A DNA stretch of 64,000 nucleotides from Halobacteriovoraceae bacterium (GTDB lineage: Bacteria; Bdellovibrionota; Bacteriovoracia; Bacteriovoracales; Bacteriovoracaceae): assembly GCA_002711995.1 (NCBI GenBank), contig PASN01000012.1:15155-79154 (forward strand). The letters are read 5' to 3'. The notes under the pieces are model-generated. The model did not search any database, had not been told where the DNA came from, and saw only the letters and a program-made list of their open reading frames with translations. Positions 51,273 to 64,000 of this stretch are shown here, piece by piece (the first letter of the stretch is position 1; every line of letters begins with the position of its first letter). A program made the translations under genes and the position numbers.

Positions 51273-51896
51273 ATGGCAATTTTTAAGTCTTTGAAGAAGG
51301 CGCTGGAAGCACCTCAAGAAGCTACAGTTTTAAAGATTAAAACCAAAGGAGCAACTCTTCCTAATGAGTTGTTTACGCTTACAAATCTCACCCAGCTCTA
51401 CATTCAGTCTAGTGAGCTCAAAACTGTTCAAGAAGATATTGCCGCTCTTTCAAAGCTTGAAACTGTAAATATCCAATCAAAGGAATTAAAAGAGGTTCCA
51501 AAGGAGTTGTTACTCCTTCCAAAGCTTAAAAGCTTAAATCTATCAGCTTGTTCGATTAAGTCACTCCCACCAATTGTAGGGGCAAACTCCCCTGTTCAGA
51601 TACTTAACTTGTCATCAAACAAGCTAAAGTCGCTCCCGCAAAACTTGGAGTCACTTTCAAGACTAAAAGAACTGAATCTTTCCAATAATGATATAGAGAG
51701 CTTTACAGATTCTATTTATTTTCTTGAAGAAATTGTGAGGCTAAATCTTAACAGCAACAAGCTTAAGAGCCTCAATTTAAAAACTGACAAGCTACCGAAC
51801 TTAAAATTTTTATCTATAGATCACAATCCATTTCCAGAAGAGGAAAAGCAAAGAATTCAAAAAGATCTTGGACTTTGGTTTGAACAATTCACATAA
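51273..51896 (+). CDS. leucine-rich repeat protein (no signal peptide)
   Basis: 207 aa with about seven 22-23-aa LRRs (LTQLYIQSSELKTV, LKSLNLSACSIKSLP, LNLSSNKLKSLP, LNLSNNDIESF, LNLNSNKLKSL, LSIDHNPF). Confidence 0.75.
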   Translation: MAIFKSLKKALEAPQEATVLKIKTKGATLPNELFTLTNLTQLYIQSSELKTVQEDIAALSKLETVNIQSKELKEVPKELLLLPKLKSLNLSACSIKSLPPIVGANSPVQILNLSSNKLKSLPQNLESLSRLKELNLSNNDIESFTDSIYFLEEIVRLNLNSNKLKSLNLKTDKLPNLKFLSIDHNPFPEEEKQRIQKDLGLWFEQFT

Positions 51897-52361: not shown

Positions 52362-52900
52362 GGGTATCTCCTTTAAAACTAGTTGATGTTTTGAAGCTGC
52401 CCCAAAATAACGCACCACAACATCCCATTCAATCCACTGTGAATTCTTTATATAATCTAGGAAGTACGTTCCTTATATTTCATACACTTAAGTACCAACA
52501 AGACACAATCCACTTGTATGACCCTATTAGATCCTATATGATTTTAGAACATGATCAGGTGGTGGGGTGTTGTCGCACCCCACCTAAATCATCGTTTGGT
52601 TAAATCTAGAATTGAATTAATGATATCCAAAAATAGTTTAATCAAAGTCAAAACCATGATTATGTCTTCCATAACAAACACCTTTTGTTACAAGGCTCCT
52701 CTTCATTGAGGAGTCATGGAAGCTGCACGCTTTGTACAGCAGTGCAGTTCACGAGTCATTTTCAATAGCTGTGTATTAGGAATTTGTTTTGTTTTTGAAA
52801 GAGAGTAATAAAAGTCTCTAATAAGCTGATGTGGTATTTCACTGAAGATACAAGAACTATATATGTAACCCCTCTAAATCACTGCACCGGAGAAATTTAC

Positions 52901-52928
52901 TAAATATCTCAGGGAATACAACCGAAGG
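52901..52928 (+). promoter_or_regulatory. sigma28-like promoter: TAAA-N16-ACCGAAGG
   Basis: TAAA at 52901-52904 and ACCGAAGG at 52921-52928, 37 nt upstream of the ATG at 52966 (AAGG SD in between). Confidence 0.35.
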
Positions 52929-52965
52929 TATAGTTTGGATACGAAAAGCAAGACAAGGTAGATAA

Positions 52966-55900
52966 ATGCAGTTAAAAATTTTGGTGTTAGCTTTTACAGC
53001 TTTGGCCATTTCTTGTGGAAGGAACAGTGCAAGCGTGAGTCAAAGTACAAAAACAACTGCGGCCCCCTCTGAAGCGCCCTTTGTTTTAGATTCAAAGTAC
53101 TTGAAGCCACTGGGCTTCCCCACTCCATACAGCAGTGTTGGTAATTTAGCGACTCCTGTCCTAGAAGTTGAGGTTCCCGAGACATTGGGCGTATTACAAC
53201 TCTTTTCAGATAGTTCATGTTCAAATGCGAATATTGTTGGCCAGAAATACGTAGATGGAAGCTTAAGCTCCACAAGGGTTCGCCTTGGAAATCTTTCTGA
53301 TGGGGTCACAAATATTTATGGCAAATTTACAGATAAAAATGGAGATGAGATCTCCTGTAAAGAAATGGATCAATACGACCTTTCAAATAAAAACTATGAT
53401 ATTCAAACTATATTCTCAAATAACAATGCTTTTGCAGCAATCAGATCTGATGGATCTGTTATTACTTGGGGCGTCCCTTCATATGGTGGAAACAGCAGCA
53501 GTGTTAGTGAACAGCTCGATGGTAGCATTGCAGTAACTAGCATTGCAGCTACTGAACGAGCATTCGCTGCAGTCAGATCTGACGGGTCTGTCATAACGTG
53601 GGGAGACTCCACATATGGTGGAGACAGCAGTGGTGTAAGTCCCGACCTCAATGGCAATATAAGCGTGACTAATATTATAGCAAGCGAGAGAGCATTTGCT
53701 GCATTAAGATTAGATGGATCTGTAATAACATGGGGAGACAACTCATACGGTGGAGATAGCAGCGATGTAAGCACCGAGCTTAATGGAACCACAGCCGTAA
53801 CGAGCATTACATCCTCATTCCGCTCCTTTGCAGCAATAAGGTCAGATGGATCCGTTGTCTCATGGGGTAGCACTAATAATGGTGGCGACAGCAGCAGTGT
53901 GAGCTCTGAGCTCAATGGAAGCATAGCTGTTACGAGCATAGCATCTACGTACGCGGCCTTCGCTGCTTTGAGAACTGATGGATCTGTCGTGACATGGGGA
54001 AACAACGTATTCGGTGGAGATAGTGACAGTGTAAGTTCTGATATAAATGGAACTATTAGTGTCATTAGTATTACTGCCACAGAGGAGGCCTTTGCAGCAC
54101 TCAGATCTGATGGCTCAGTAATTACCTGGGGGAACTCCTCTAACGGTGGTGATAGTAGTGGTGTAAGTACTGAACTCAATGGAAGCACCCCCGTTACGAG
54201 TATTTATTCGACGGAATCAGCCTTCGCTGCAGTTAGGTCGGATGGATCAGTCATTGCTTGGGGTCATGGTGGATATGGTGGAAGCACCAGCGGTGTCAGC
54301 TCCGATCTTAATGGAACCATCAATGTTACAAGTATTGAAGCTTCAAGAGGTGCCTTTGCAGCAATTAGATCAAATGGTTCTGTCATAACTTGGGGATATG
54401 GTTCACATGGAGCAAATAGCAGTAGCGTGAGCTCTGACATCGATGGAAGTGTGGAAGTAATTAGTATTGCATCAACAAAACAGGCATTTGCCGCACTCAG
54501 AAGTGACGGTTCAGTTATAACTTGGGGCAGCAGTAATTACGGTGGAGACAGTAGCGATGTAAGTGCTGATCTTGATGGAACAGTCAGCGTCACAAGCATT
54601 GCGGCAACAGATCAAGCATTTGCGGCAATAAGAGCCGACGGGTCCATTGTCACGTGGGGTCATTCTGGATACGGAGGAGATAGCTCGAATAAAAGCTCTG
54701 GTTCTAAAAACCTAATTGATATAGCGAGCATCCATTCAGCAATCTCTTACTCATACTCTTCCTTTGCCGCTCTAAAGACTGATGGCTCTGTTATTGCATG
54801 GGGAGACGCCTATTCAGGAGGAGATACTAGCAGCGTAAGCACTGACATCGACGGAAGCATTGGTGTAACCAGTATCATTGCAAATAATTATTCATTTGCC
54901 GCACTAAGATCTGATGGCTCCGTTATAGCCTGGGGTATTAGTAGTTTAGGTGGAGACACTAGCAGTGTGAGCACTGATCTTGATGGGAGCACACCTGTTA
55001 CAAATGTAGTAGCATCAGAGGGCGCTTTTGCTGCACTAAGATCAGATGGGTCAGTCATAACTTGGGGAAGTACCACCTACGGTGGAGACAGCACCAGTGT
55101 TGCAGCAGATATAAATGGAACAATTAACGTAGTCAGCATCTCCGCGACTGATGGTGCCTTTGCTGCGATTAGATCAGACGGATCCGTAATCACTTGGGGA
55201 GATCCATTGCAAGGTGGCAATAGCAGCACAGTTAGCTCCTCAATTAACGGAACGATTAACGTAACGAGCATAGTCGCAACTGCCGAAGCTTTTGCCGCAA
55301 TCAGAAGTGATGGCTCTGTAGTTACCTGGGGAGACTCTGGACATGGTGGTGACAGCGCCAGTGTAAGCACAGCTATTAATGGCACCACACCTGTAATAAG
55401 TATAAATGCATCTAGTGGCAACACTGGTTCTGCATTTGCAGCACTTAGAGATGACGGCTCAGTCATTGCATGGGGATACTCCAGCGCCGGCGGAAATACA
55501 AGCAGTGTTAGCTCTCAAATAGACGGAACCATAGATGTAATAAGCATTGTTCCTAACGGAAAGGCATTCGCTGCGATCAGATCTGACGGTTCAGTAGTTA
55601 CTTGGGGCTACCTTCATGGAGGTGGCGACAGTAGCAGTGTGAGTTCGGAACTTGATGGCAGCATTGATGTAATTAGTATTGCCGGCACAGCGGGAATTAG
55701 TAATTTTGCAGCCTTCGCAGCAATCAGATCTGATGGATCTGTGATTACATGGGGAAAGCCTGATTATGGTGGAGACAGCAGTAGTGTGAGCGCCGAGCTT
55801 GATGGAACCATCGATGTAGTAAGCATAGCTGGGACAGATAGAGCGTTTGCGGCTATTAGATCCGACGGCTCTATTGTAACATGGGGAGAAAGTGATAATG

Positions 55901-56058
55901 GTGGGGCCATAAGTGAAGAATATAACGGTTTCTCAGATGGCTCCTTTTTATTTGCTTCAGAAGAAAATTTCTGCTCTAAAGACTTAGTTGGAAATATCTT
56001 CTGCTGGGGCAATCCTAATTATTCGTTTGATCCTCAATTTACTGGCAGGCAGTTCTGA
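52966..56058 (+). CDS. lipoprotein with 19 copies of a 38-aa RCC1-like 'AFAAIRSDGSVITWG..GGDSS.VS..L.G...V.SI' repeat (paralog A)
   Basis: 1030 aa with lipobox ALAISCG. It has a ~130-aa conserved N-domain shared with the two paralogs, 19 WG-containing repeats, and a conserved C-terminal cap ending FCWGNPNYSFDPQFTGRQF. Confidence 0.8.
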   Translation: MQLKILVLAFTALAISCGRNSASVSQSTKTTAAPSEAPFVLDSKYLKPLGFPTPYSSVGNLATPVLEVEVPETLGVLQLFSDSSCSNANIVGQKYVDGSLSSTRVRLGNLSDGVTNIYGKFTDKNGDEISCKEMDQYDLSNKNYDIQTIFSNNNAFAAIRSDGSVITWGVPSYGGNSSSVSEQLDGSIAVTSIAATERAFAAVRSDGSVITWGDSTYGGDSSGVSPDLNGNISVTNIIASERAFAALRLDGSVITWGDNSYGGDSSDVSTELNGTTAVTSITSSFRSFAAIRSDGSVVSWGSTNNGGDSSSVSSELNGSIAVTSIASTYAAFAALRTDGSVVTWGNNVFGGDSDSVSSDINGTISVISITATEEAFAALRSDGSVITWGNSSNGGDSSGVSTELNGSTPVTSIYSTESAFAAVRSDGSVIAWGHGGYGGSTSGVSSDLNGTINVTSIEASRGAFAAIRSNGSVITWGYGSHGANSSSVSSDIDGSVEVISIASTKQAFAALRSDGSVITWGSSNYGGDSSDVSADLDGTVSVTSIAATDQAFAAIRADGSIVTWGHSGYGGDSSNKSSGSKNLIDIASIHSAISYSYSSFAALKTDGSVIAWGDAYSGGDTSSVSTDIDGSIGVTSIIANNYSFAALRSDGSVIAWGISSLGGDTSSVSTDLDGSTPVTNVVASEGAFAALRSDGSVITWGSTTYGGDSTSVAADINGTINVVSISATDGAFAAIRSDGSVITWGDPLQGGNSSTVSSSINGTINVTSIVATAEAFAAIRSDGSVVTWGDSGHGGDSASVSTAINGTTPVISINASSGNTGSAFAALRDDGSVIAWGYSSAGGNTSSVSSQIDGTIDVISIVPNGKAFAAIRSDGSVVTWGYLHGGGDSSSVSSELDGSIDVISIAGTAGISNFAAFAAIRSDGSVITWGKPDYGGDSSSVSAELDGTIDVVSIAGTDRAFAAIRSDGSIVTWGESDNGGAISEEYNGFSDGSFLFASEENFCSKDLVGNIFCWGNPNYSFDPQFTGRQF
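53428..55920 (+). repeat. 114-bp coding tandem repeat array (~19 units)
   Basis: Periodic gc.tt.gc.gc..t.ag.tc.ga.gg.tc.gt..t.ac.tgggg units are seen throughout. The period was derived from the 38-aa protein repeat. Confidence 0.85.
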
Positions 56059-56076
56059 AAGCTATTTAATGAAAAA

Positions 56077-56095
56077 GAGGCCAAAAACTGGCCTC
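56077..56095. terminator. bidirectional hairpin terminator between convergent genes
   Basis: gaggcca-aaaac-tggcctc, flanked by A/T-rich sequence. Confidence 0.55.
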
Positions 56096-56101
56096 AACTT
56101 A

Positions 56102-58468
56102 TTAAACTTGAATTAGGTTGATTTGATCATCTTTGACCGTAACACTTACTGCTCCAGTCCCCTCTTCACCTTTTAATATAAATTTAGAAAGAGGCCTAAT
56201 CACAAGTCTATTGAATACAGATTGAAGTGGCCTTGCTCCAAACTTTTCATCATACCCAAGCTCGGCAAGTTTACTTTTAGCATCCTCGCTGAACTCAATC
56301 TCCATCTTCTTGGATTTGAGTCTGCTTTGAAGAAGCTTAATCTGCTTCTCAACAAGATTGGCCATAACGTTTTTACCAAGGGGTTTATACTCTAGTCTGG
56401 CATCAAGTCTACCTAGAACTTCTGGTTTAAAGTCTCTTTCAGGATCCTTTGAGTTGGTTGTAAGAATAATAATGGTGTTCTTAAAGTTAATTGTTCTTCC
56501 CTTATTATCTGTAAGCCTTCCATCATCAAGGATTTGCAGAAGAATATCCGAGAAGTCAGGGTGTGCCTTCTCTATCTCATCGAAGAGGACAACTGAGTAT
56601 GGGTGGCGTCTTACTGCCTCAGTAAGCACGCCTCCCTCGTCATAGCCAACATACCCAGCAGGGGCTCCAATAAGCTTGGCCACACTGTGCTTTTCGCTGA
56701 ATTCACTCATATCCAGACGAATCATGTTCTTTTCATCGTCAAACAAATACGACGCCAAACTCTTGGCCGTCTCAGTTTTACCAACACCCGTAGGGCCCAT
56801 TAGCAGGAACGACCCCATCGGACGAGTCTCATCGGTCAGGCCTGCGTAACTCGATAGAAGGGTCTCGCTTATTTCTGTTAACGCCTCCTCTTGACCAAAG
56901 ACTCTTTGGTTGAGTATATCTTCAAGCTTTAAAAGCTCTTCCTGTTTAGACTTCAAGATCTTTTCAACAGGGATTCCAGTGTGACGTGCAATAATATTGG
57001 CTATGTTTTCCTCTCTTAAAATCCAATCATGACTCATACTTTGAAGCTCTTTCTCGGCCTCAGGTAGTAAGTGATACTTGATCTTTGAAGCTTCTTCATA
57101 GTTGGACTCTCTTTCAGCAACCTCAAGATCGAATTTGAGTTTTTCAACTCTGTTTCTAATCTCACTAACCTTTTTCAGGGATCCAACTTGGGCCTCCCAC
57201 TTAACATAACCTTCATCGAACTTCTTTTGAAGTTTATCTATCTCCTGATGAATTTCTTTATTGTCTTTATCAACCTGAGCAAGGATCTTTTTATTTCTAA
57301 TTTCAGACTTTAAAAGTTCAAGCTCAGTAGGCATAGCCTCTGCAGATAGCTTAAGGGCCGAAGCCGACTCATCAATCAAGTCAATTGCTTTATCTGGCAA
57401 GTTCTTGTCCGTAATGTACTGATCAGAAAGCATGACTGAGCTATAAATAGCTTCGTCTGAAATCTTGATACCATGATGCCCCTCAAATTTTTCTTTAAGC
57501 CCCATAAGTATTTCAATAGAGTCCTCTCTAGAGGGCTCGTGAACAGGGACCTGTCTAAACCTTCTCTCAAGTGCTGGATCTTTTAGAATATGCTTTTGAA
57601 ACTCATCCTCTGTGGTGGCCCCAATACAGTGAAGATCTCCTCTTGCAAGAGCTGGTTTTAATAGGTTTGCCGCATCCATTGCTCCCTCAGTTTTTCCAGC
57701 TCCAATTAGTTGGTGAATTTCATCAATGAAAATGATGTATTCACCAGCACCTTCCTTCGCAAATTTTAAAAGATTTTGAACCCTCTCCTCAAACTCACCT
57801 CTAAACTTTGTTCCAGCGAGAAGAGAACCAAGCTCCATGCTATAAACGGTCTTGCCTTTTAATACATCAGGAACCTGCTCTTTTACGATTGCGTCTGCAA
57901 GACCCTCAACGATGGCAGTCTTACCAACCCCCGCAGGCCCAACAAGAACAGGATTGTTTTTTCCTCGCCTGCCAAGAATTTCCATAACAGCTCTAATCTC
58001 TTTGGTTCTTCCAATTACAGGATCTAGCTTACCTTCCTTTGCAAGATCATTGAGGTTCACCAAAAACGAAGGTACTTCAGTCTCTTCCTGCTCACTTCCT
58101 TTTAACTTGGAATAATCAAGATCAAGAGTCGGAAATGTTTGTGGAAGAAACTTCAAAAGGTCTCTCTCCCCCATCTCTTGTCTTACCGATTTTGCAGCAT
58201 TTGCACTTGCCTGGGTAAGCCATCCCGAAAGAGCTCCAGAAGGTCGGATATTTTCAGGATTTAAATCACTTGTAGTGGTTGGAATATGTTGAAGTAGGGC
58301 CTCCACTTTTGGAAGGTCGTCTTTGTAAGTCTTTGCGCTAAAGCTTGATGGATTGGAAATGAGTCCATATAAAAGATGGGCCGGCGCCAACTCAGTATTT
58401 TTACTTTCTATTGCTTTAGATTGCGCGATGTCCAAAGCACCCGCAACAATTTGGTCAAACTTGTTCAT
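56102..58468 (-). CDS. clpB: ClpB-type AAA+ disaggregase (short form)
   Basis: 788 aa. Clp N-domain; NBD1 Walker [19 protein letters not shown]; coiled-coil middle domain; NBD2 [18 protein letters not shown]; sensor GARPL. Confidence 0.9.
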
Positions 58469-58629
58469 ATGCTTGCTCCTTGTATGTCACATCTTAAAAT
58501 GGGTGCAAAATGGCGACCGTCAAGGTTGAACCACTCAAATTTTAAGTAATTTTGGAATTTTCACACTGCTTCTCGACAAAGATTTCCGCCACTTATAAAC
58601 TTTACTCAAGTTTAACCACAAAGGAATTT

Positions 58630-60321
58630 ATGAAGACTCTACTATGTGTTCTGATGAGCTGCTTTCTAACCCAGGCAGCTGTTGATCTTAGCTCCCCAAG
58701 AGCAACTTTTAAAACATTTTTAAAAGCAATGGTGAATGTTAAAAACAAGCAAAACATAACTGAAGCATACGCCCAGGCCCGAGCAACTCTCGACTTATCT
58801 GGAATTGACCCTGCCGCTCAAAAAGAGGCAGCAATCAAGATCAGCGAATCACTAATTTTTATTTTCGATCGCATGGAGCGAATTGATTACAATAAGATTC
58901 CCACAAATCCTAAAGCGGACACTTGGGTATATAACAAGAAACAACTTGAGCAAAAAAGCATAGAAATAAGTCTCAATAAAGTAGACTCAAAGTGGCTCTT
59001 CTCAAGAGACACAATAAAGTCCATCCCAACATACAGGGAACTTTTAAGAGAAAAGTCCATAGTTGAAGGCGTTGTAAAGTTAAATACTTGGCGAGAGAAG
59101 TTAAGAAACACTCTTCCTCTTTGGAGTCAAAAAGAGATTCTCTTTATCGAAGTTTGGCAGTGGTTTGGGCTACTCTTCCTAGTAATTGTCGCCTACCTAA
59201 TTGAAAAGATTATTTCTTTTATTGGAACAGCAATCATCAATAAAAATGTGCATATCTTTCAAGAGAAACAAACAGAGGTTATAAGAAAGGCAATGGTGCC
59301 GTTTGGTAAAATAATTCTTCTCTACCTAGTATTCATAAACCTTTCATGGCTTGACTTTGAACCAGGAGAACTTGCATTCATTAAAAGAACTATTTACGTC
59401 CTAAGCGCGCTGGCCGCTGTCTGGCTTGGACATAGAGTTGTGGAAATCTTCTCTTTCTACTTCCACGAAAAAGCGTCTTTAACTGAAAGCAAGTTTGACG
59501 ACATCATCATTCCCCTTGCAACCAAGACGACGTTTGTTCTTGTTTATATCTTTGGAATTTTATTGATTGCGGCATCTCTTACAATTGATGTTACGGGCAT
59601 TCTAGCTGGTCTAGGTATTGGTGGTCTGGCATTCGCATTTGCCGCAAAGGACACCCTTGCAAACTTCTTTGGATCAATTATGTTGGTACTTGATCGTCCT
59701 TTCGATATTGGAGATGTTATTACAACAGGAGATATTGAAGGAGTCGTTGTTGAAGTGGGCTTCAGATCCACAAGAATAAGAACTTTTTACGACTCTATAA
59801 TTACTGTCTCCAATGGCGAACTCATGAACAGAGCAATTGATAATAAAGGAAAAAGACGCTACAGAAGACTCAACACCACCTTAGGCCTTGAGGACGACAC
59901 TCCACCTGAAAAAGTGGAGGCGTTCTGTGAAGGTATAAGACAGCTTATCCTATCCAATAAATGGACCAGGAAAGACAACTTCAATGTCTACTTCACAAAC
60001 TTTGGTCCAAGCTCCCTTGATATACAACTTATGGTCTTTTGGGAGACTTCTGAATACTCAAGAGAACAAGCAGAGAAGCATAGACTAATGATTGATGTTC
60101 TAAGACTTGCTAAAGAACTGGAAGTGGGTTTTGCCTTCCCTACTCAAACTGTTCACCTGTTCAATGAAACAGCTAAGCCTGAACATAAAGTGCCTGAGAA
60201 ATATTTCGACGAGGCAATTGGAAGGGCCAAAGGATTACTTGGTAAACCTCTATCCCTCAAGAATCCAAGAAGCAATGCCAACGACGAAGAGCAGTTTGGA
60301 AAGAATGATATTGGAAACTAA
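58630..60321 (+). CDS. mechanosensitive ion channel (MscS) family protein with N-terminal periplasmic extension
   Basis: The ATG at 58630 (AAGGAA SD) gives a signal-like MKTLLCVLMSCFLTQAAV. MscS core: GIGGLAFAFAAKDTLANFFGSIMLVLDRPFDIGDVI...EGVVVEVGFRSTRIRT. Confidence 0.8.
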   Translation: MKTLLCVLMSCFLTQAAVDLSSPRATFKTFLKAMVNVKNKQNITEAYAQARATLDLSGIDPAAQKEAAIKISESLIFIFDRMERIDYNKIPTNPKADTWVYNKKQLEQKSIEISLNKVDSKWLFSRDTIKSIPTYRELLREKSIVEGVVKLNTWREKLRNTLPLWSQKEILFIEVWQWFGLLFLVIVAYLIEKIISFIGTAIINKNVHIFQEKQTEVIRKAMVPFGKIILLYLVFINLSWLDFEPGELAFIKRTIYVLSALAAVWLGHRVVEIFSFYFHEKASLTESKFDDIIIPLATKTTFVLVYIFGILLIAASLTIDVTGILAGLGIGGLAFAFAAKDTLANFFGSIMLVLDRPFDIGDVITTGDIEGVVVEVGFRSTRIRTFYDSIITVSNGELMNRAIDNKGKRRYRRLNTTLGLEDDTPPEKVEAFCEGIRQLILSNKWTRKDNFNVYFTNFGPSSLDIQLMVFWETSEYSREQAEKHRLMIDVLRLAKELEVGFAFPTQTVHLFNETAKPEHKVPEKYFDEAIGRAKGLLGKPLSLKNPRSNANDEEQFGKNDIGN

Positions 60322-60523
60322 AGAACAGTTTCAATAGTTCCAACTTATATCCCCAGAAGACAGGAACCAATCAATACTTCTATTCTTTGGTCCTGTTTTC
60401 TAATAAAGATTTTCTCTTCTCTAGATCTAAATTAAGTGGTGCTTTGGTAGTGTATTAAGAGAAAGGATCAACTTGTCCTAACGAGCTAAGTAGCTTTAAT
60501 CATGTGGTTTATTAAGTTTTTAT

Positions 60524-60550
60524 TAGCATTTATGTCGATTTAGCCGATAT
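60524..60550 (+). promoter_or_regulatory. sigma28-like -10 element GCCGATAT, 7 nt from the ATG (weak -35)
   Basis: GCCGATAT at 60543-60550; ATG at 60558. The -35 region reads TAGC at N15. Confidence 0.35.
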
Positions 60551-60557
60551 ATACAAT

Positions 60558-62435
60558 ATGAATCATACGCCAAAACTGTCTACATTTAGAGTCGTCATCC
60601 TTATCTTCTTCACGGCCCTATTAGGCTCTTGTGGTAAATCAGGCGGAAACCTCAACCTAAACAACTCAGACTCCTCAGGCTCTAGCGATAAGTTTTTAAA
60701 ATCTTTGGGTTTTGAAGCTCCCTACTCTAGTGTTGGAAACGCGGCCACACCAGTCCTAAAAGTTGAAGTCCCAAACAAACTAGGAATTTTACAGCTATTC
60801 TCCGACAGCTCATGTTCAAACTCAAATGTTGTTGGGTATAAATATGTAGATGGAATTGACGACTCTGTAAGTGTCCGTCTTGGAAACCTTCCGGAAGGCA
60901 GTATATCTATATATGCCAAATTTACAGACAAGGATTTGAATGAAAGCTCTTGTAAAAAAGTTCAGGAATATGACCTTTCAAATAAGAGCTACCAAATTCA
61001 AAATATTGTTGCAACATCTGGAGCTTTTGCAGCCATTAGATCGGATGGCTCCGTTGTAACCTGGGGAAACACCTCAGGCGGTGGAGATAGCAACAGCGTA
61101 AGTTCTGAGCTTGATGGCACCACTGCAGTAACCAGCATTTACTCAAACAATAGCGCATTTGCGGCAATTAGAACGGATGGTTCGGTAGTTACTTGGGGAA
61201 GTTCATCCTACGGTAGTGACAGCAGCAGTGTAAGTTCAGATCTCAATGGAACTATTGATGTAGTAAATATTGTTGCAACAGATCGCGCATTTGCAGCAAC
61301 CAGATCAGATGGGTCAGTAGTAACTTGGGGACATTCATCCTACGGTGGAGATAGCGCCAGTGTGAGTTCTGATCTTAACGGAACTAGCGATGTCGTTGAC
61401 ATCGCTACAACACGTCGAGCCTTTGCAGCGATCAGATCAGACGGGTCTGTAATTACATGGGGAGACTCCTCCTATGGTGGAAATAGCAGCACTGTTAGTT
61501 CTGATCTTAACGGAGCAGTTGATGTGACGAGTATTGGATCAACAGCTCGCGCGTTTGCAGCAATCAGATCAGATGGATCTGTAGTAACTTGGGGAGATTC
61601 AAATTATGGAGGAAATAGCACCAGTGTGAGCTCTGAACTTAACGGAACTACAGAGGTGACAGATATTGTTGCAACAGATCGTGCTTTCGCAGCGATCAGA
61701 TCAGATGGGTCTGTAGTAACTTGGGGAGACTCCTCCTACGGAGGAAATAGCACCAGTGTGAGCACCGAACTTAACGGAACTACAGAGGTAACTAATATTG
61801 TGGCAACCTTTTCTGCTTTCGCAGCAATTAGATCCGATGGGTCTGTTGTTACATGGGGAGACGCCTCCCACGGCGGAGACAGCAGCGGAGAAAGTTCTGA
61901 ACTTAATGGGACTATCGGTGTAACGAGTATTTCGGCGATATCTTCTTTTCTTGGCTCCTCTTTCGCAGCAATTAGATCAGATGGATCCGTAGTAACTTGG
62001 GGAAGCTCCTCTAGTGGCGGAGACAGCAGCAGTGTTAGCGCTGAACTTAATGGAACAGTTGCTGTGACAGATATTGTTGCTACAAATGGAGCTTTTGCAG
62101 CAATCAGGTCAGATGGATCAGTAGTCACTTGGGGAGACTCTAATTACGGTGGAGACAGCAACAGTGTGAGTTCTGATTTAGATGGAAGTGTTGCAGTAAC
62201 AAGTATTGCTGCAACCAAAGGTGCTTACGCTGCGGTCAGATCTGATGGAACTGTAGTTACCTGGGGACATGCTATATACGGTGGAGATATCGGCAAGTAT
62301 AAGGCCTACTCAGAAGGCTCTTTCATACATGCGGGAGAATCAAACTTCTGTTCAAAAGATTTTCTTGGAAGACTTTTCTGCTGGGGAGATCCAACTCTCT
62401 CTTTTGATCCACAAATTGTTGGAAGACAGTTTTAG
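60558..62435 (+). CDS. 38-aa-repeat lipoprotein, paralog B (10 repeats)
   Basis: 625 aa with lipobox LLGSCG. Same N-domain (LKSLGFEAPYSSVGNAATPVLKVEVPNKLGILQLFSDSSCSNSNVVGYKYVDG...) and same C-terminal cap (...FCWGDPTLSFDPQIVGRQF). Confidence 0.8.
   Translation: MNHTPKLSTFRVVILIFFTALLGSCGKSGGNLNLNNSDSSGSSDKFLKSLGFEAPYSSVGNAATPVLKVEVPNKLGILQLFSDSSCSNSNVVGYKYVDGIDDSVSVRLGNLPEGSISIYAKFTDKDLNESSCKKVQEYDLSNKSYQIQNIVATSGAFAAIRSDGSVVTWGNTSGGGDSNSVSSELDGTTAVTSIYSNNSAFAAIRTDGSVVTWGSSSYGSDSSSVSSDLNGTIDVVNIVATDRAFAATRSDGSVVTWGHSSYGGDSASVSSDLNGTSDVVDIATTRRAFAAIRSDGSVITWGDSSYGGNSSTVSSDLNGAVDVTSIGSTARAFAAIRSDGSVVTWGDSNYGGNSTSVSSELNGTTEVTDIVATDRAFAAIRSDGSVVTWGDSSYGGNSTSVSTELNGTTEVTNIVATFSAFAAIRSDGSVVTWGDASHGGDSSGESSELNGTIGVTSISAISSFLGSSFAAIRSDGSVVTWGSSSSGGDSSSVSAELNGTVAVTDIVATNGAFAAIRSDGSVVTWGDSNYGGDSNSVSSDLDGSVAVTSIAATKGAYAAVRSDGTVVTWGHAIYGGDIGKYKAYSEGSFIHAGESNFCSKDFLGRLFCWGDPTLSFDPQIVGRQF
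61023..62300 (+). repeat. 114-bp coding tandem repeat array (~10 units; adjacent units near 61.55-61.80 kb nearly identical)
   Basis: Direct comparison of units starting ~61549 and ~61663 shows only scattered substitutions. Confidence 0.85.
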
Positions 62436-62737
62436 AAAGATCGAGGCTATTACGCCTTACCTATGAAAGCCTCATCTCTCAATTGAACATTCCAATAGCT
62501 ATGCCAAAGACAAAGAACAGTCTAAAAAAATAAGAAAACTGAATACTACTTTATAGTGATCCCTCAACAGTCCTTTTAATGTGCCAACTAGTTATATAAT
62601 GTCTGTGTTTAGCATAGAAACAAGCCCGAACCACGAAAATATGCCCAATTTTTTTGCCTTTTTTCATTTCTATTGGAAATAATGGCATTACCTTTAAAAC
62701 CATAAACCCCTGAAATCTATACAGATTAAGTATTTAT

Positions 62738-62766
62738 TTAATGCCAAATAGTATTATAGCCGACAA
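62738..62766 (+). promoter_or_regulatory. sigma28-like -10 element GCCGACAA, 7 nt from the ATG (weak -35)
   Basis: GCCGACAA at 62759-62766; ATG at 62774. The spacing to the ATG is the same as in paralog B. Confidence 0.35.
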
Positions 62767-62773
62767 TATTGCT

Positions 62774-64000
62774 ATGAAGAAAAAGCGTTGTTGTTGTGTA
62801 TGGCCTAAATTTTTACTTTTAACCTTTTTAGCGATTGCTATCTCCTGTGGAAAAAGAGGCGTTAACGTTGAGGTTATTGAGATTGCACCAAATTCATCTG
62901 GAGATCTTGGTTCTAACCTTCTAAGGTCTCTTGGCTTTGCAGGCCCCTACTCCAGTGTTGGAAGTGCGGCTACACCAGTTATTGAAATTGAAGTCCCTAA
63001 TAAACTAGGCATATTGCAACTATTTTCAGACAGCAATTGCTCAAGATCAAACCTTATCGGCTACAAGTACGTGGATGGAAGTGTGGACTCGGTAAGAGTG
63101 CGTCTAGGCAATCTTTCTGAAGGCAGCATTTCTATATACGCTAAATTTACAGACAAAGATTTGAATGAAACCTCATGCAAGAAAATGGATCAGTACGATC
63201 TCTCAAACAAAAATTACCAAATTCAAAGTATTGCTGCAAGCTATGATGCATTTGCAGCAATCAGAGCAGATGGCTCCGTAGTGACTTGGGGAAATTCAGC
63301 AAGCGGCGGAGACAGCAGTGCAGTGAGCTCAGACCTTGATGGCACTACTGCCGTAACCAGCATTTCTGCAACCTTTGGTGCTTTTGCGGCAATTAGAGCG
63401 GATGGTTCCGTAATAACTTGGGGAGATCCTTCAATGGGTGGGGACAGCAGCAGCGTGAGTTCAGAGCTTGACGGCACTATTGCGGTAACCAGTATCTACA
63501 AAACCAATCGTGCTTTTGCGGCAGTTAGGACAGATGGTTCAGTAGTAACTTGGGGATACTCCTCAGAAGGTGGAGATAGCAGCGCAGTGAGTTCTGAGCT
63601 TGACGGCACTACTGCCGTCACCAGCATATATGCGACCAGCGAAGCTTTTGCGGCAATTAGAGCGGATGGATCTGTAGTAACATGGGGAGATTCTTCATAC
63701 GGTGGAGATAGCAGCAGCGTGAGTTCAGAGCTTGATGGCACCACTGCTGTTACCAGTATTGCTGCAAAAGATTATGCTTTTGCAGCAATTAGGACAGATG
63801 GTTCTGTTGTAACCTGGGGAGACCCTTTATATGGCGGGGACAGCAGCAGCGTAAGTTCTGACCTTGATGGCACCACTGCCGTAACCACCATTACTGCAAA
63901 CAAATATGCTTTTGCGGCGATTAGGACAGATGGATCTGTAGTAACCTGGGGAAATTCGTTTGGACATAACGGCACCGTAACCAGTATTTATGCAACCAGC
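62774..64000 (+). CDS. 38-aa-repeat lipoprotein, paralog C (5' part; runs off the right edge)
   Basis: It is not in the ORF track because there is no stop in the window. My translation gives MKKKRCCCVWPKFLLLTFLAIAISCGK..., the same N-domain, then at least 6 AFAAIR(A/T)DGSVVTWG repeats. Confidence 0.8.
   Translation, partial: MKKKRCCCVWPKFLLLTFLAIAISCGKRGVNVEVIEIAPNSSGDLGSNLLRSLGFAGPYSSVGSAATPVIEIEVPNKLGILQLFSDSNCSRSNLIGYKYVDGSVDSVRVRLGNLSEGSISIYAKFTDKDLNETSCKKMDQYDLSNKNYQIQSIAASYDAFAAIRADGSVVTWGNSASGGDSSAVSSDLDGTTAVTSISATFGAFAAIRADGSVITWGDPSMGGDSSSVSSELDGTIAVTSIYKTNRAFAAVRTDGSVVTWGYSSEGGDSSAVSSELDGTTAVTSIYATSEAFAAIRADGSVVTWGDSSYGGDSSSVSSELDGTTAVTSIAAKDYAFAAIRTDGSVVTWGDPLYGGDSSSVSSDLDGTTAVTTITANKYAFAAIRTDGSVVTWGNSFGHNGTVTSIYATS
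63248..64000 (+). repeat. 114-bp coding tandem repeat array (continues beyond the window)
   Basis: Same repeat unit as at 53428-55920 and 61023-62300. Confidence 0.85.

What the first reader, a model, noticed from the sequence alone, without database searches (positions are those of the whole stretch)
52966..64000. Three-member family of lipoproteins built from a 38-aa RCC1-like 'AFAAIRSDGSVVTWG-x4-GGDSS' repeat
Three genes (52966-56058, 60558-62435, 62774->edge) share four parts:
- a lipoprotein signal;
- a ~130-aa conserved N-domain (…LGF..PYSSVG.AATPV.EVEVP..LG.LQLFSDS.CS..N..G.KYVDG…IY.KFTDK…C…YDLSN);
- 19, 10 and at least 6 copies of a strict 38-aa repeat;
- a conserved ~42-aa cap.

The repeat resembles an RCC1/ATS1 blade (V.SI..g...fAAlrsDGSV.tWG....GG) but is much shorter than canonical RCC1 repeats (about 50-60 aa). 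It replaces the G..H and GQLG motifs with A.A and GGDSS. A 38-aa period fits one beta-propeller blade per unit.

I cannot assign it to a named family. A multi-copy, copy-number-variable, cell-surface propeller family under attack-phase-like promoters is a plausible prey/ligand recognition system. The paralogs are interleaved with clpB and an MscS gene, i.e. they are not a simple tandem duplication.
Basis: partly seen in the sequence, partly recalled or inferred. Interest (0 to 1): 0.65.

Follow-up and report, generated by a model that had tools for sequence, protein, structure and literature searches.

The report
Lipoproteins with short RCC1/BLIP-II propeller repeats
Three neighbouring genes of a marine predatory bacterium (Bacteriovoracaceae) encode envelope-anchored lipoproteins made of an Ig-like stalk plus long arrays of a 44-residue beta-propeller blade that belongs to the already defined RCC1/BLIP-II repeat family, so the genes are real but ordinary in kind.

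Summary
The three genes exist as described: A 52966-56058, B 60558-62435, C 62774 to the window edge. They share a lipobox signal, a conserved N-domain, 19/10/at least 6 repeat units and a conserved C-terminal cap.

Two points in the finding are wrong.
- The period is 44 aa (132 nt), not 38 aa.
- The repeat can be assigned to a named family. It hits Pfam RCC1_2 (E 2e-70, 1e-39, 3e-28). A and B also exceed the threshold of the RCC1-like domain PF25390; the truncated C is below it.

More than 2,700 homologues carry the same unit. A unit profile matches BLIP-II best among solved structures (E 2e-8), and the array profile matches HERC2, RCC1 and UVR8. AlphaFold models the array at pLDDT about 98, with three strands plus a short helix per unit, which is the BLIP-II blade type.

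The N-domain is a divergent Big_13 Ig-like module. The cap is a degenerate terminal unit with a Cys pair.

Copy-number variation is real: B orthologues have 7, 10 and 18 units. The wider family strongly prefers 10 units, not the canonical 7.

Prey recognition and attack-phase expression remain untested. Only a sigma28-like -10 element is present before B and C.

Verdict: a new member of a known kind, of low to moderate interest.

The parts
52966..56058 (+). Gene A, a 1030-aa lipoprotein. It consists of a signal peptide with lipobox, an Ig-like N-domain, 19 RCC1_2 units (10 units, a divergent linker, then 9 units) and a cap.
   Evidence: ORF. Pfam RCC1_2 E 2e-70 in 17 stretches, WD40_RLD E 3e-80. 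Unit anchors. A syntenic orthologue with 19 units is present in the MAG L004 and in L005.
52966..53016 (+). Signal peptide and lipobox of A (…LAIS-C17).
   Evidence: The PROSITE-type lipobox rule is met, K is present in the n-region, and the +2 residue is Gly.
53113..53370 (+). N-domain of A (about residues 50-135), a divergent Big_13-type Ig-like module with a conserved Cys85/Cys131 pair.
   Evidence: Exhaustive HMMER search gives 151 hits, with the unit recurring up to 28 times in giant proteins. Those stretches are Pfam Big_13. The region is all-beta in the AF2 models at pLDDT about 75-90.
53401..54690 (+). Units 1-10 of A (about residues 146-575).
   Evidence: 44-aa spacing. AF2 pLDDT about 98, with three strands and a short helix per unit.
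54691..55920 (+). Divergent linker (about residues 576-598, 'NKSSGSKNLIDIASIHSAISYSYS') followed by units 11-19 of A.
   Evidence: Anchor spacing of 48 at this junction. These units are not modelled confidently because the alignment rows cover only 10 units.
55921..56055 (+). C-terminal cap of A, a degenerate terminal unit with a Cys pair (FCSKDLVGNIFCWG).
   Evidence: The cap is in register with FAAIRSDGSVVTWG. A cap HMM aligns to ordinary units in homologues. The weak RCC1_2 hit (E 0.06) is for B's cap. Cys positions.
60543..60549 (+). GCCGATA, a sigma28/FliA -10-like element lying 8 nt before the ATG of B.
   Evidence: Sequence. Conserved as GCCGATAA in the MAG. Consensus TTAAG-N16-CCGATA from PMC3627812. 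There is no -35 element at N16.
60558..62435 (+). Gene B, a 625-aa lipoprotein. Lipobox Cys25, N-domain at about residues 51-137, 10 units at about residues 147-575, cap at residues 576-625.
   Evidence: ORF. Pfam RCC1_2 E 1e-39, WD40_RLD E 3e-49. AF2 mean pLDDT 85.5, pTM 0.77. Fold hits to UVR8, HERC2 and RCC1.
62759..62765 (+). GCCGACA, a sigma28 -10-like element lying 8 nt before the ATG of C.
   Evidence: Sequence. The spacing to the ATG is the same as for B.
62774..64000 (+). Gene C, truncated by the window edge. Lipobox Cys25, N-domain, and at least 6 units.
   Evidence: Translation. Pfam RCC1_2 E 3e-28. Lipobox rule met.

Best explanation
A, B and C are paralogous cell-envelope lipoproteins of a marine Bacteriovoracaceae predator.

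Proposed mechanism, step by step:
1. Each protein is exported by Sec and lipidated on the lipobox Cys. This is inferred from the lipobox rule.
2. Each is tethered to a membrane, most likely the outer membrane, since the +2 residue is Gly and not Asp. This is inferred from the E. coli Lol sorting rule.
3. A disulfide-stabilised Big_13-type Ig-like module acts as a stalk. The homology is shown; the stalk role is inferred.
4. The stalk carries one array (B) or two arrays (A) of short 44-residue RCC1/BLIP-II-type blades. Each blade has three strands and a short helix. The family membership and the blade structure are shown, the latter by prediction.
5. A degenerate Cys-pair unit closes the array. 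The homology is shown; the closing role is inferred.

Like other RCC1/BLIP-II propellers (BLIP-II, UVR8, the HERC2 RCC1-like domains, the ACR4 ectodomain), the array most likely acts as a rigid, non-enzymatic binding platform for a protein or glycan ligand. The variable positions of the unit lie next to the conserved FAA…WG core: the four residues after WG and the residues flanking the V.SI strand. The ligand is unknown. Unit number changes quickly between close relatives, as is usual for exposed repeat proteins.
For: - Pfam: RCC1_2 is above its gathering score in all three proteins, and WD40_RLD is above its score in A and B.
- More than 2,793 homologues share the same 44/42/41-aa unit and carry adhesin-type partner domains: RTX, Big_13, cadherin, DUF4347.
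- Profile matches to solved structures: HERC2 RLD 9e-18, RCC1 4e-10, UVR8 1e-7. The unit profile matches BLIP-II 1jtd_B at 2e-8.
- AF2 model of B: the array has pLDDT about 98, with three strands and a helix per unit.
- Foldseek hits at probability 1.0 to UVR8, HERC1/2, RCC1 and ACR4.
- BLIP-II is described as a propeller with three-stranded blades (PMC6121496).
- The lipobox rule is met in all three proteins. Two Cys pairs and no other Cys in the mature proteins fit an oxidising, extracytoplasmic location. The pI is about 4.1-4.3.
- The N-domain is linked to Big_13 through an exhaustive search and has a weak hit to an RTX adhesin (6xi3).
- The cap aligns as a degenerate unit.
- Purifying selection acts on the units.
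- Synteny and unit counts in orthologues.
Against: - No experimental or expression data exist for these genes.
- Membrane sorting and surface exposure of lipoproteins in BALOs cannot be predicted from the +2 rule with confidence.
- The N-domain itself does not reach the Pfam Big_13 threshold.
- The global geometry of the array is unknown. TM-score to 7-bladed propellers is only about 0.45, and I could not inspect model coordinates.
- The cap is modelled at pLDDT below 50.
- Two wild orthologues carry stop codons, so the genes may be dispensable.
Confidence: 0.72

Rival explanations
1. The proteins are attack-phase, surface-exposed receptors that recognise or attach to prey, and unit-number variation tunes prey range.
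For: - The organism is a BALO.
- B and C have a CCGATA/CCGACA element like the -10 of the FliA-type attack-phase promoter. It is conserved in the MAG.
- In B. bacteriovorus the FliA regulon includes cell-surface proteins (PMC3627812).
- Unit number is 7, 10 or 18 among B orthologues.
- The wider family has adhesin-type domain partners.
Against: - There is no TTAAG at the N16 spacing, and A matches poorly.
- GCCGAYA is not enriched in the window: 10 matches against 5.7 expected.
- The same repeat family is abundant in non-predators such as cyanobacteria, methanotrophs and dinoflagellates, so it is not a predation-specific module.
- Two wild orthologues look inactivated.
- No expression, localisation or binding data exist.
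Confidence: 0.15
2. The proteins are periplasm-facing, BLIP-II-like binders. They are tethered to the inner leaflet of the outer membrane and bind and inhibit an enzyme, for example a cell-wall hydrolase, a penicillin-binding protein or a beta-lactamase-fold protein. This could serve as self-protection during predation.
For: - The unit profile's closest solved relative is BLIP-II, a picomolar protein inhibitor with three-stranded blades.
- A lipoprotein with Gly at +2 is, by default, periplasm-facing in the outer membrane.
Against: - BLIP-II has 7 blades and no Ig-like stalk, whereas these proteins have 10-19 units.
- BLIP-II is not among the top 50 fold matches to the full model.
- No partner enzyme gene is adjacent; the neighbours are clpB, MscS and an LRR protein.
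- Large variation in unit number is unusual for a specific inhibitor.
Confidence: 0.08
3. The repeat is a new 38-aa family that only resembles RCC1 and belongs to no named family.
For: NCBIfam has no model for these proteins. A single-sequence phmmer search against the PDB found no propeller.
Against: - The period is 44 aa.
- Pfam RCC1_2 is far above threshold in all three proteins and WD40_RLD is above threshold in A and B. A two-unit fragment alone gives RCC1_2 E 2.5e-12.
- Profile homology to HERC2, RCC1, UVR8 and BLIP-II.
- Source databases already name homologues 'RCC1 domain-containing protein' or 'alpha-tubulin suppressor-like RCC1 family protein'.
Confidence: 0.02
4. The genes are decaying or dispensable repeat genes with no current function.
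For: - The A orthologue in TARA contig L001 has a nonsense codon at position 142.
- The B orthologue in L006 has lost its lipobox Cys and has two stop codons.
Against: - All three window genes are intact across 1030, 625 and at least 408 codons.
- Third codon positions are nearly saturated while positions 1 and 2 are conserved.
- The MAG orthologues are intact.
- The defects occur in metagenome assemblies and may be errors.
Confidence: 0.03

Closest known systems
BLIP-II (beta-lactamase inhibitor protein II, Streptomyces exfoliatus; PDB 1JTD, 3QHY)
   Same: It is the best solved-structure match of the single-unit profile (E 2e-8). It has a short repeat of about 40 aa and blades of only three antiparallel strands (PMC6121496), as in the AF2 model here. 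It is a secreted bacterial protein that works purely by binding.
   Different: BLIP-II is a single closed 7-bladed propeller of about 270 aa, with no lipid anchor and no Ig-like domain. These proteins have 10-19 units plus a cap. BLIP-II is not among the top 50 fold matches of the whole model.
Canonical RCC1-like domains (RCC1, HERC1/HERC2 RCC1-like domains, UVR8; Pfam PF00415 and PF25390)
   Same: Significant profile homology (HERC2 9e-18, RCC1 4e-10, UVR8 1e-7). They are the top Foldseek hits at probability 1.0. They share the core motif, a hydrophobic strand followed by (D/N)G-x-V-x-x-WG.
   Different: Canonical repeats are longer; HMMER has to open gaps in the query. Their blades have four strands, with seven per propeller. 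Here the units are 44 aa with three strands and a helix, the family mode is 10 units, GGDSS replaces GQLG, and TM-score to these targets is only about 0.45. These are also extracytoplasmic lipoproteins, not cytosolic or nuclear regulators.
Bacterial 10-unit RCC1_2 arrays in large secreted or adhesin-type proteins (annotated DUF4347, RTX, cadherin, Big_13 or 'RCC1 domain-containing' proteins of cyanobacteria, Methylococcaceae, Bdellovibrio sp. HCB337 and others)
   Same: They have the same unit consensus, AFAAL..DGSVVTWG....GGDSS.V...L.G...V..I.ST.., at 45-63% identity over the array. 73 of 120 have exactly 10 units, like B. Some combine Big_13 modules with the array. A few have two arrays, like A (P0003 with 9+9).
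   Different: Most are not lipoproteins. Their other domains differ, commonly RTX Ca-binding repeats or DUF4347. This particular N-domain plus Cys-pair cap combination was found only in a small marine Bacteriovoracaceae clade.
Highly repetitive RCC1/BLIP-II propellers catalogued by Pereira & Lupas 2022 (PMC9218822)
   Same: They are bacterial RCC1/BLIP-II proteins with near-identical blades, and blade number varies between close paralogues and orthologues.
   Different: That survey stresses recent amplification. Here the units are only about 64% identical at DNA level and third codon positions are saturated, so the arrays are old and kept similar by selection.
CRINKLY4 (ACR4/PpCR4) extracellular WD40-like domain
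   Same: It is an extracellular RCC1/BLIP-II-type propeller with short repeats, and it appears among the fold hits (7a0k, 7a0j). Its closest structural homologue is BLIP-II.
   Different: It is a plant receptor-kinase ectodomain with 7 blades, disulfides within the blades and a pore-filling N-terminal strand. None of these features was shown here.

Membership tests
Pfam RCC1_2 (PF13540) repeat | Whole-protein score above the gathering threshold (22 bits), with multiple repeat matches. | tested here: met
   231, 133 and 97 bits with 17, 10 and 6 stretches. A two-unit fragment scores 46.7 bits.
Pfam RCC1-like domain (WD40_RLD, PF25390) | Score above the gathering threshold (150 bits). | tested here: met
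   A scores 270.9 bits and B 168.8 bits. The truncated C scores 92.6 bits, below threshold because it is cut by the window edge.
RCC1/BLIP-II superfamily | Sequence homology to members with solved structures. | tested here: met
   Array profile: HERC2 9e-18, RCC1 4e-10, UVR8 1e-7. Unit profile: BLIP-II 2e-8.
RCC1/BLIP-II superfamily | Beta-propeller blade fold. | tested here: met
   AF2 array pLDDT about 98, three strands per unit. Foldseek probability 1.0 to UVR8, HERC, RCC1 and ACR4. This is a prediction, not an experiment.
RCC1/BLIP-II superfamily | Seven blades closing into one ring. | tested here: inconclusive
   Unit counts are 10, 19 and at least 6 here, and the mode across 120 homologues is 10. 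TM-score to 7-bladed targets is about 0.45 with rmsd about 7.5 Å, so a canonical 7-blade ring is not present in the model.
Canonical RCC1 repeat (PF00415) | Longer repeat forming a four-stranded blade, with the GQLG-type motif. | tested here: not met
   The period is 44 aa. PF00415 scores only E 0.026, below threshold. There are three strands and a helix per unit, and GGDSS stands in place of GQLG.
RCC1 as Ran guanine-nucleotide exchange factor, or Legionella RCC1-repeat effectors | Binding or activation of Ran GTPase; delivery by a type IV secretion system. | not testable with these tools
   The proteins carry a Sec/lipoprotein signal, which argues against effector translocation.
BLIP-II | Tight binding and inhibition of class A beta-lactamases. 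| not testable with these tools
   Only sequence and blade-type similarity were shown.
Bacterial lipoprotein (signal peptidase II substrate) | Lipobox: uncharged h-region, then [LIVMFWSTAG]2-[LIVMFYSTAGCQ]-[AGS]-C, with K/R in the n-region and the Cys at positions 15-35. | tested here: met
   All three proteins match, with Cys17, Cys25 and Cys25. The lipobox is conserved in the MAG orthologues.
Bacterial lipoprotein (signal peptidase II substrate) | Actual lipidation and outer-membrane or surface location. | not testable with these tools
   Inferred only from Gly at +2 and from the Cys pairs.
Pfam Big_13 (PF19077) bacterial Ig-like domain, for the N-domain | Direct score above the gathering threshold (27 bits). 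| tested here: not met
   No Big_13 hit for the three N-domains even at E up to 10.
Pfam Big_13 (PF19077) bacterial Ig-like domain, for the N-domain | Homology to bona fide Big_13 modules (transitive). | tested here: met
   The N-domain profile hits 151 proteins, with up to 28 tandem stretches per protein. The same stretches score 25-29 bits for Big_13 individually, and the whole proteins reach E 1e-54.
FliA (sigma28)-type attack-phase promoter of Bdellovibrio (TTAAG-N16-CCGATA) | Both the -35 and -10 elements at the published spacing upstream of the gene. | tested here: inconclusive
   The -10 element is present for B (GCCGATA) and C (GCCGACA). The -35 element matches only 3 of 5 at N16, and TTAAG lies 27 or 29 nt upstream. 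A matches weakly, as CTAAA-N17-CCGAAG. The motif is not enriched in the window.

The most novel reading that the evidence does not exclude
The 10-unit array, which is the strongly preferred size across this large bacterial and dinoflagellate family, may close into a single 10-bladed propeller of three-stranded blades. No solved RCC1/BLIP-II structure has that ring size. In this marine predator the lipoprotein paralogues, with rapidly changing unit number (7, 10, 18, 19) and sigma28-driven, possibly leaderless, transcripts, may be attack-phase surface receptors that set prey specificity.
Probability: 0.1. Interest if true: 0.55.

Novelty: new member of a known kind. Interest (0 to 1): 0.25.

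Why it matters
The result adds a small, clade-restricted lipoprotein subfamily of marine Bacteriovoracaceae to the very large and functionally uncharacterised group of bacterial RCC1/BLIP-II repeat proteins.

Two side results may have wider use.
- Across the family the array size is overwhelmingly 10 units rather than the textbook 7. That geometry has no solved representative.
- Orthologues at about 90-99% DNA identity differ by up to 11 units, and some carry disabling mutations. This is the pattern expected of exposed proteins under fluctuating selection.

If these proteins proved to be prey-contact proteins they would be useful markers of prey range. Nothing here shows that.

Tried and rejected
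- NCBIfam scan: only noise.
- Single-sequence phmmer of B against the PDB: one spurious hit to an ileal lipid-binding protein. The profile searches were needed instead.
- Word-indexed search with the N-domain: three fragments only. The exhaustive HMMER search was needed to link it to Big_13.
- Pfam on the N-domain and cap alone: nothing significant.
- The N-domain HMM gave no match (E up to 10) to the N-terminal regions of P0003 or Bdellovibrio P0041, although these look similar in layout. I therefore do not claim they share the domain.
- Sigma70 promoter and terminator scan: fewer sites than in shuffled sequence, so uninformative.
- GCCGAYA enrichment: not significant.
- AF2 of A: units 11-19 and the cap came out at pLDDT below 50 because the alignment rows cover only 10 units. 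This is an artefact of alignment coverage and not evidence about structure. It therefore could not test the 10+9 domain split.
- Rfam on the whole window: one tRNA only.
- Literature searches for RCC1 proteins in BALOs and for DUF4347: nothing specific. One paper notes that Bdellovibrio 'RTX toxins' are really RCC1-repeat proteins.
- Recent tandem amplification or gene conversion as the cause of the repeat's regularity: rejected. Median identity between units is 64% at DNA level and third codon positions are 42% identical.

Full report
**Observation**

The region holds three + strand ORFs at the coordinates given: A 52966-56058 (1030 aa), B 60558-62435 (625 aa) and C 62774 to the window edge (at least 408 aa). 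They are separated by clpB on the - strand (56102-58468) and an MscS-type channel gene (58552-60321).

Tandem Repeats Finder reports a 132-nt period in all three genes. The spacing of the FAA(I/L)R.DGS anchor is 44 residues, with a few 48/49-residue units. The period is therefore 44 aa, not the 38 aa stated. The unit counts of 19, 10 and at least 6 are correct, and no other copies occur anywhere in the 64-kb window.

The consensus of 28 exact-length units is AFAAiRsDGSViTWGxssyGGdSssVSsdldGtxxVtsIxatxx.

Units are only about 64% identical at the DNA level. Codon positions 1/2/3 are 70/77/42% identical. The regularity therefore reflects purifying selection on old units, not a recent amplification.

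**What the repeat is**

The repeat maps cleanly to defined families.
- Pfam RCC1_2 (PF13540) scores E 2e-70, 1e-39 and 3e-28.
- The RCC1-like domain model WD40_RLD (PF25390) scores E 3e-80 and 3e-49 for A and B, above its gathering score. The truncated C scores 92.6 bits, below it.
- Two units alone give RCC1_2 E 2.5e-12.

A search with B returned at least 2,793 significant homologues, all carrying PF13540 and PF25390. Several are already named 'RCC1 domain-containing protein' or 'alpha-tubulin suppressor-like RCC1 family protein'.

A profile of the array matches the RCC1-like domains of HERC2 (9e-18), RCC1 (4e-10) and UVR8 (1e-7). A profile of the single unit matches BLIP-II best (1jtd_B, 2e-8).

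AlphaFold2 models B with mean pLDDT 85.5 and pTM 0.77. The array is at about 98, and each unit forms three strands plus a short helix. BLIP-II is described as a propeller whose blades have only three antiparallel strands (PMC6121496). The unit is therefore the short, BLIP-II-type blade of the RCC1/BLIP-II superfamily.

Foldseek places UVR8, HERC1/2, RCC1 and the ACR4 ectodomain on top with probability 1.0. However, the TM-score is only about 0.45 and the rmsd about 7.5 Å. The blades match, but the model does not contain a canonical 7-blade ring.

**The other shared parts**

All three proteins satisfy the PROSITE-type lipobox rule, with Cys17, Cys25 and Cys25 and Gly at +2. The mature proteins are acidic (pI about 4.1-4.3). 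Their only other cysteines form two conserved pairs, one in the N-domain and one in the cap.

The N-domain has no direct Pfam hit, and the word-indexed search found only three fragment hits. An exhaustive HMMER search found 151 proteins in which an approximately 85-residue core recurs up to 28 times in tandem. Those stretches are Pfam Big_13 bacterial Ig-like modules. There is also a weak hit to an RTX-type adhesion protein (6xi3, E 0.04). The N-domain is thus a divergent Big_13-type Ig-like module. Big_13 plus RCC1 combinations exist elsewhere (P0126, P0145).

The cap (…NFCSKD..G..FCWG…) is in exact register with FAAIRSDGSVVTWG. B's cap gives a weak RCC1_2 hit. A cap HMM aligns to ordinary units of homologues and resembles the Cys-pair RCC1_2 variant CAILDDGSLKCWG. 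The cap is a degenerate terminal unit.

**Organism and relatives**

The only genome among 185,579 species representatives that carries this N-domain is an uncultured Bacteriovoracaceae MAG. Other copies come from TARA Oceans and other metagenome contigs.

The locus is syntenic in the MAG, with A, clpB, MscS and B in the same order. The A orthologue has 19 units. The B orthologue has 18 units in the MAG, 10 here and 7 in TARA contig L006. Unit number is genuinely variable between close relatives.

Two metagenomic orthologues look inactivated.
- The A orthologue in L001 has AAA to TAA at codon 142.
- The B orthologue in L006 has the lipobox Cys changed to Phe and two in-frame stops.

These could be assembly errors.

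**Family-wide pattern**

Counting units with an HMM in the 120 best homologues gives exactly 10 units in 73 of them. The longest array is exactly 10 in 72, and arrays longer than 11 are almost absent. A few proteins have two arrays, for example P0003 with 9+9.

Ranking by a 10-unit query under-samples shorter arrays. It does not explain the absence of longer ones.

B fits the 10-unit mode. A has 10 units, then a divergent linker (residues 576-598), then 9 units plus the cap. AF2 models units 1-10 of A at pLDDT about 98. The remainder is not informative, because the alignment rows cover only 10 units.

Whether 10 units close into one ring could not be read from the tool output. In 2013 sortilin was described as the only known 10-bladed propeller (PMC3797127). 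Highly repetitive bacterial RCC1/BLIP-II propellers with variable blade number are a recognised class (PMC9218822).

**Promoters**

The published attack-phase consensus in B. bacteriovorus is TTAAG-N16-CCGATA (PMC3627812).
- B has GCCGATA and C has GCCGACA, each exactly 8 nt before the ATG. The element is conserved in the MAG.
- The -35 element at N16 matches only 3 of 5 positions.
- A has only CTAAA-N17-CCGAAG.
- GCCGAYA is not enriched in the window.

The promoter claim is therefore only partly supported. The fixed 8-nt spacing and the lack of a Shine-Dalgarno sequence before B and C hint at leaderless transcripts. That is an inference only.

**Mechanism**

Shown:
- Membership of the RCC1/BLIP-II family.
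- The three-stranded blade type, by prediction.
- The lipobox.
- The Ig-like N-domain, by transitive homology.
- The degenerate terminal unit.
- Purifying selection on the units.
- Unit-number variation between orthologues.

Inferred:
- Sec export and lipidation.
- Outer-membrane tethering.
- Disulfide formation.
- A role as a rigid, non-enzymatic binding platform held on an Ig-like stalk.

This reading is by analogy with BLIP-II, UVR8, HERC2 and ACR4, and with the adhesin-type partner domains of the homologues. The ligand is unknown. Prey recognition is possible but unsupported, because the same array is abundant in cyanobacteria, methanotrophs and dinoflagellates.

**Verdict**

The genes and their four-part architecture are real. 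The repeat is a member of an already defined and very large family, and the stated period is wrong. This is a new member of a known kind, of low to moderate interest. The main residual curiosities are the 10-unit array size that dominates the family and the rapid change in unit number in this BALO clade.

Noticed in passing
L006:3858-5400 (TARA contig CEUL01148960.1); compare window 60558-62435: A B orthologue downstream of MscS has only 7 units plus the cap. Its lipobox Cys codon is changed (TGT to TTT) and it has two in-frame stops (TAC to TAA after 'DLSNKS', and 'FAVIR*DGS'). It is either a pseudogene or a poor assembly.
   Followed up: partly
L001:10001-13093 (TARA scaffold_984; also L002 and L003); compare window 52966-56058: The A orthologue is 99% identical in DNA but has AAA to TAA at codon 142 ('DLSN*'). 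This lies within three codons of the position of the stop seen in the L006 B orthologue, at the boundary between the N-domain and the array. Gene callers split the gene into three ORFs.
   Followed up: partly
window 60543-60560 and 62759-62776: GCCGATA and GCCGACA each lie exactly 8 nt before the ATG of B and C, with no Shine-Dalgarno sequence. This may indicate leaderless sigma28-type transcripts. A instead has an AAGGTAG Shine-Dalgarno-like element.
   Followed up: partly
window 52561-52584, within the 547-bp intergenic region 52419-52965: A perfect 10-bp GC-rich hairpin (GGTGGGGTGT…GCACCCCACC). Folding z-score is -4.1. No T-run follows on either strand, and there is no Rfam match.
   Followed up: partly
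window 51273-51896 (+): A 207-aa leucine-rich-repeat protein (LRR_8 E 1e-18) lies just upstream of the family. This is a eukaryote-like repeat protein with no evident signal peptide.
   Followed up: no
P0001-P0120 (homologues of B): 73 of 120 homologues have exactly 10 RCC1_2-type units of 41, 42 or 44 aa. Several hits come from dinoflagellates (Symbiodinium, Polarella), fused to unrelated eukaryotic domains.
   Followed up: partly
window 61267-62170 and 63227-63957: Tandem Repeats Finder also reports higher-order periods of 396 nt (3 units) in B and 264 nt (2 units) in C. This suggests that some past duplications involved blocks of several units.
   Followed up: no
window 62774-62800: Gene C's signal peptide begins MKKKRCCCVW…, with three consecutive Cys in the n-region. 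This is unusual for a lipoprotein signal peptide. An alternative downstream start was not examined.
   Followed up: no
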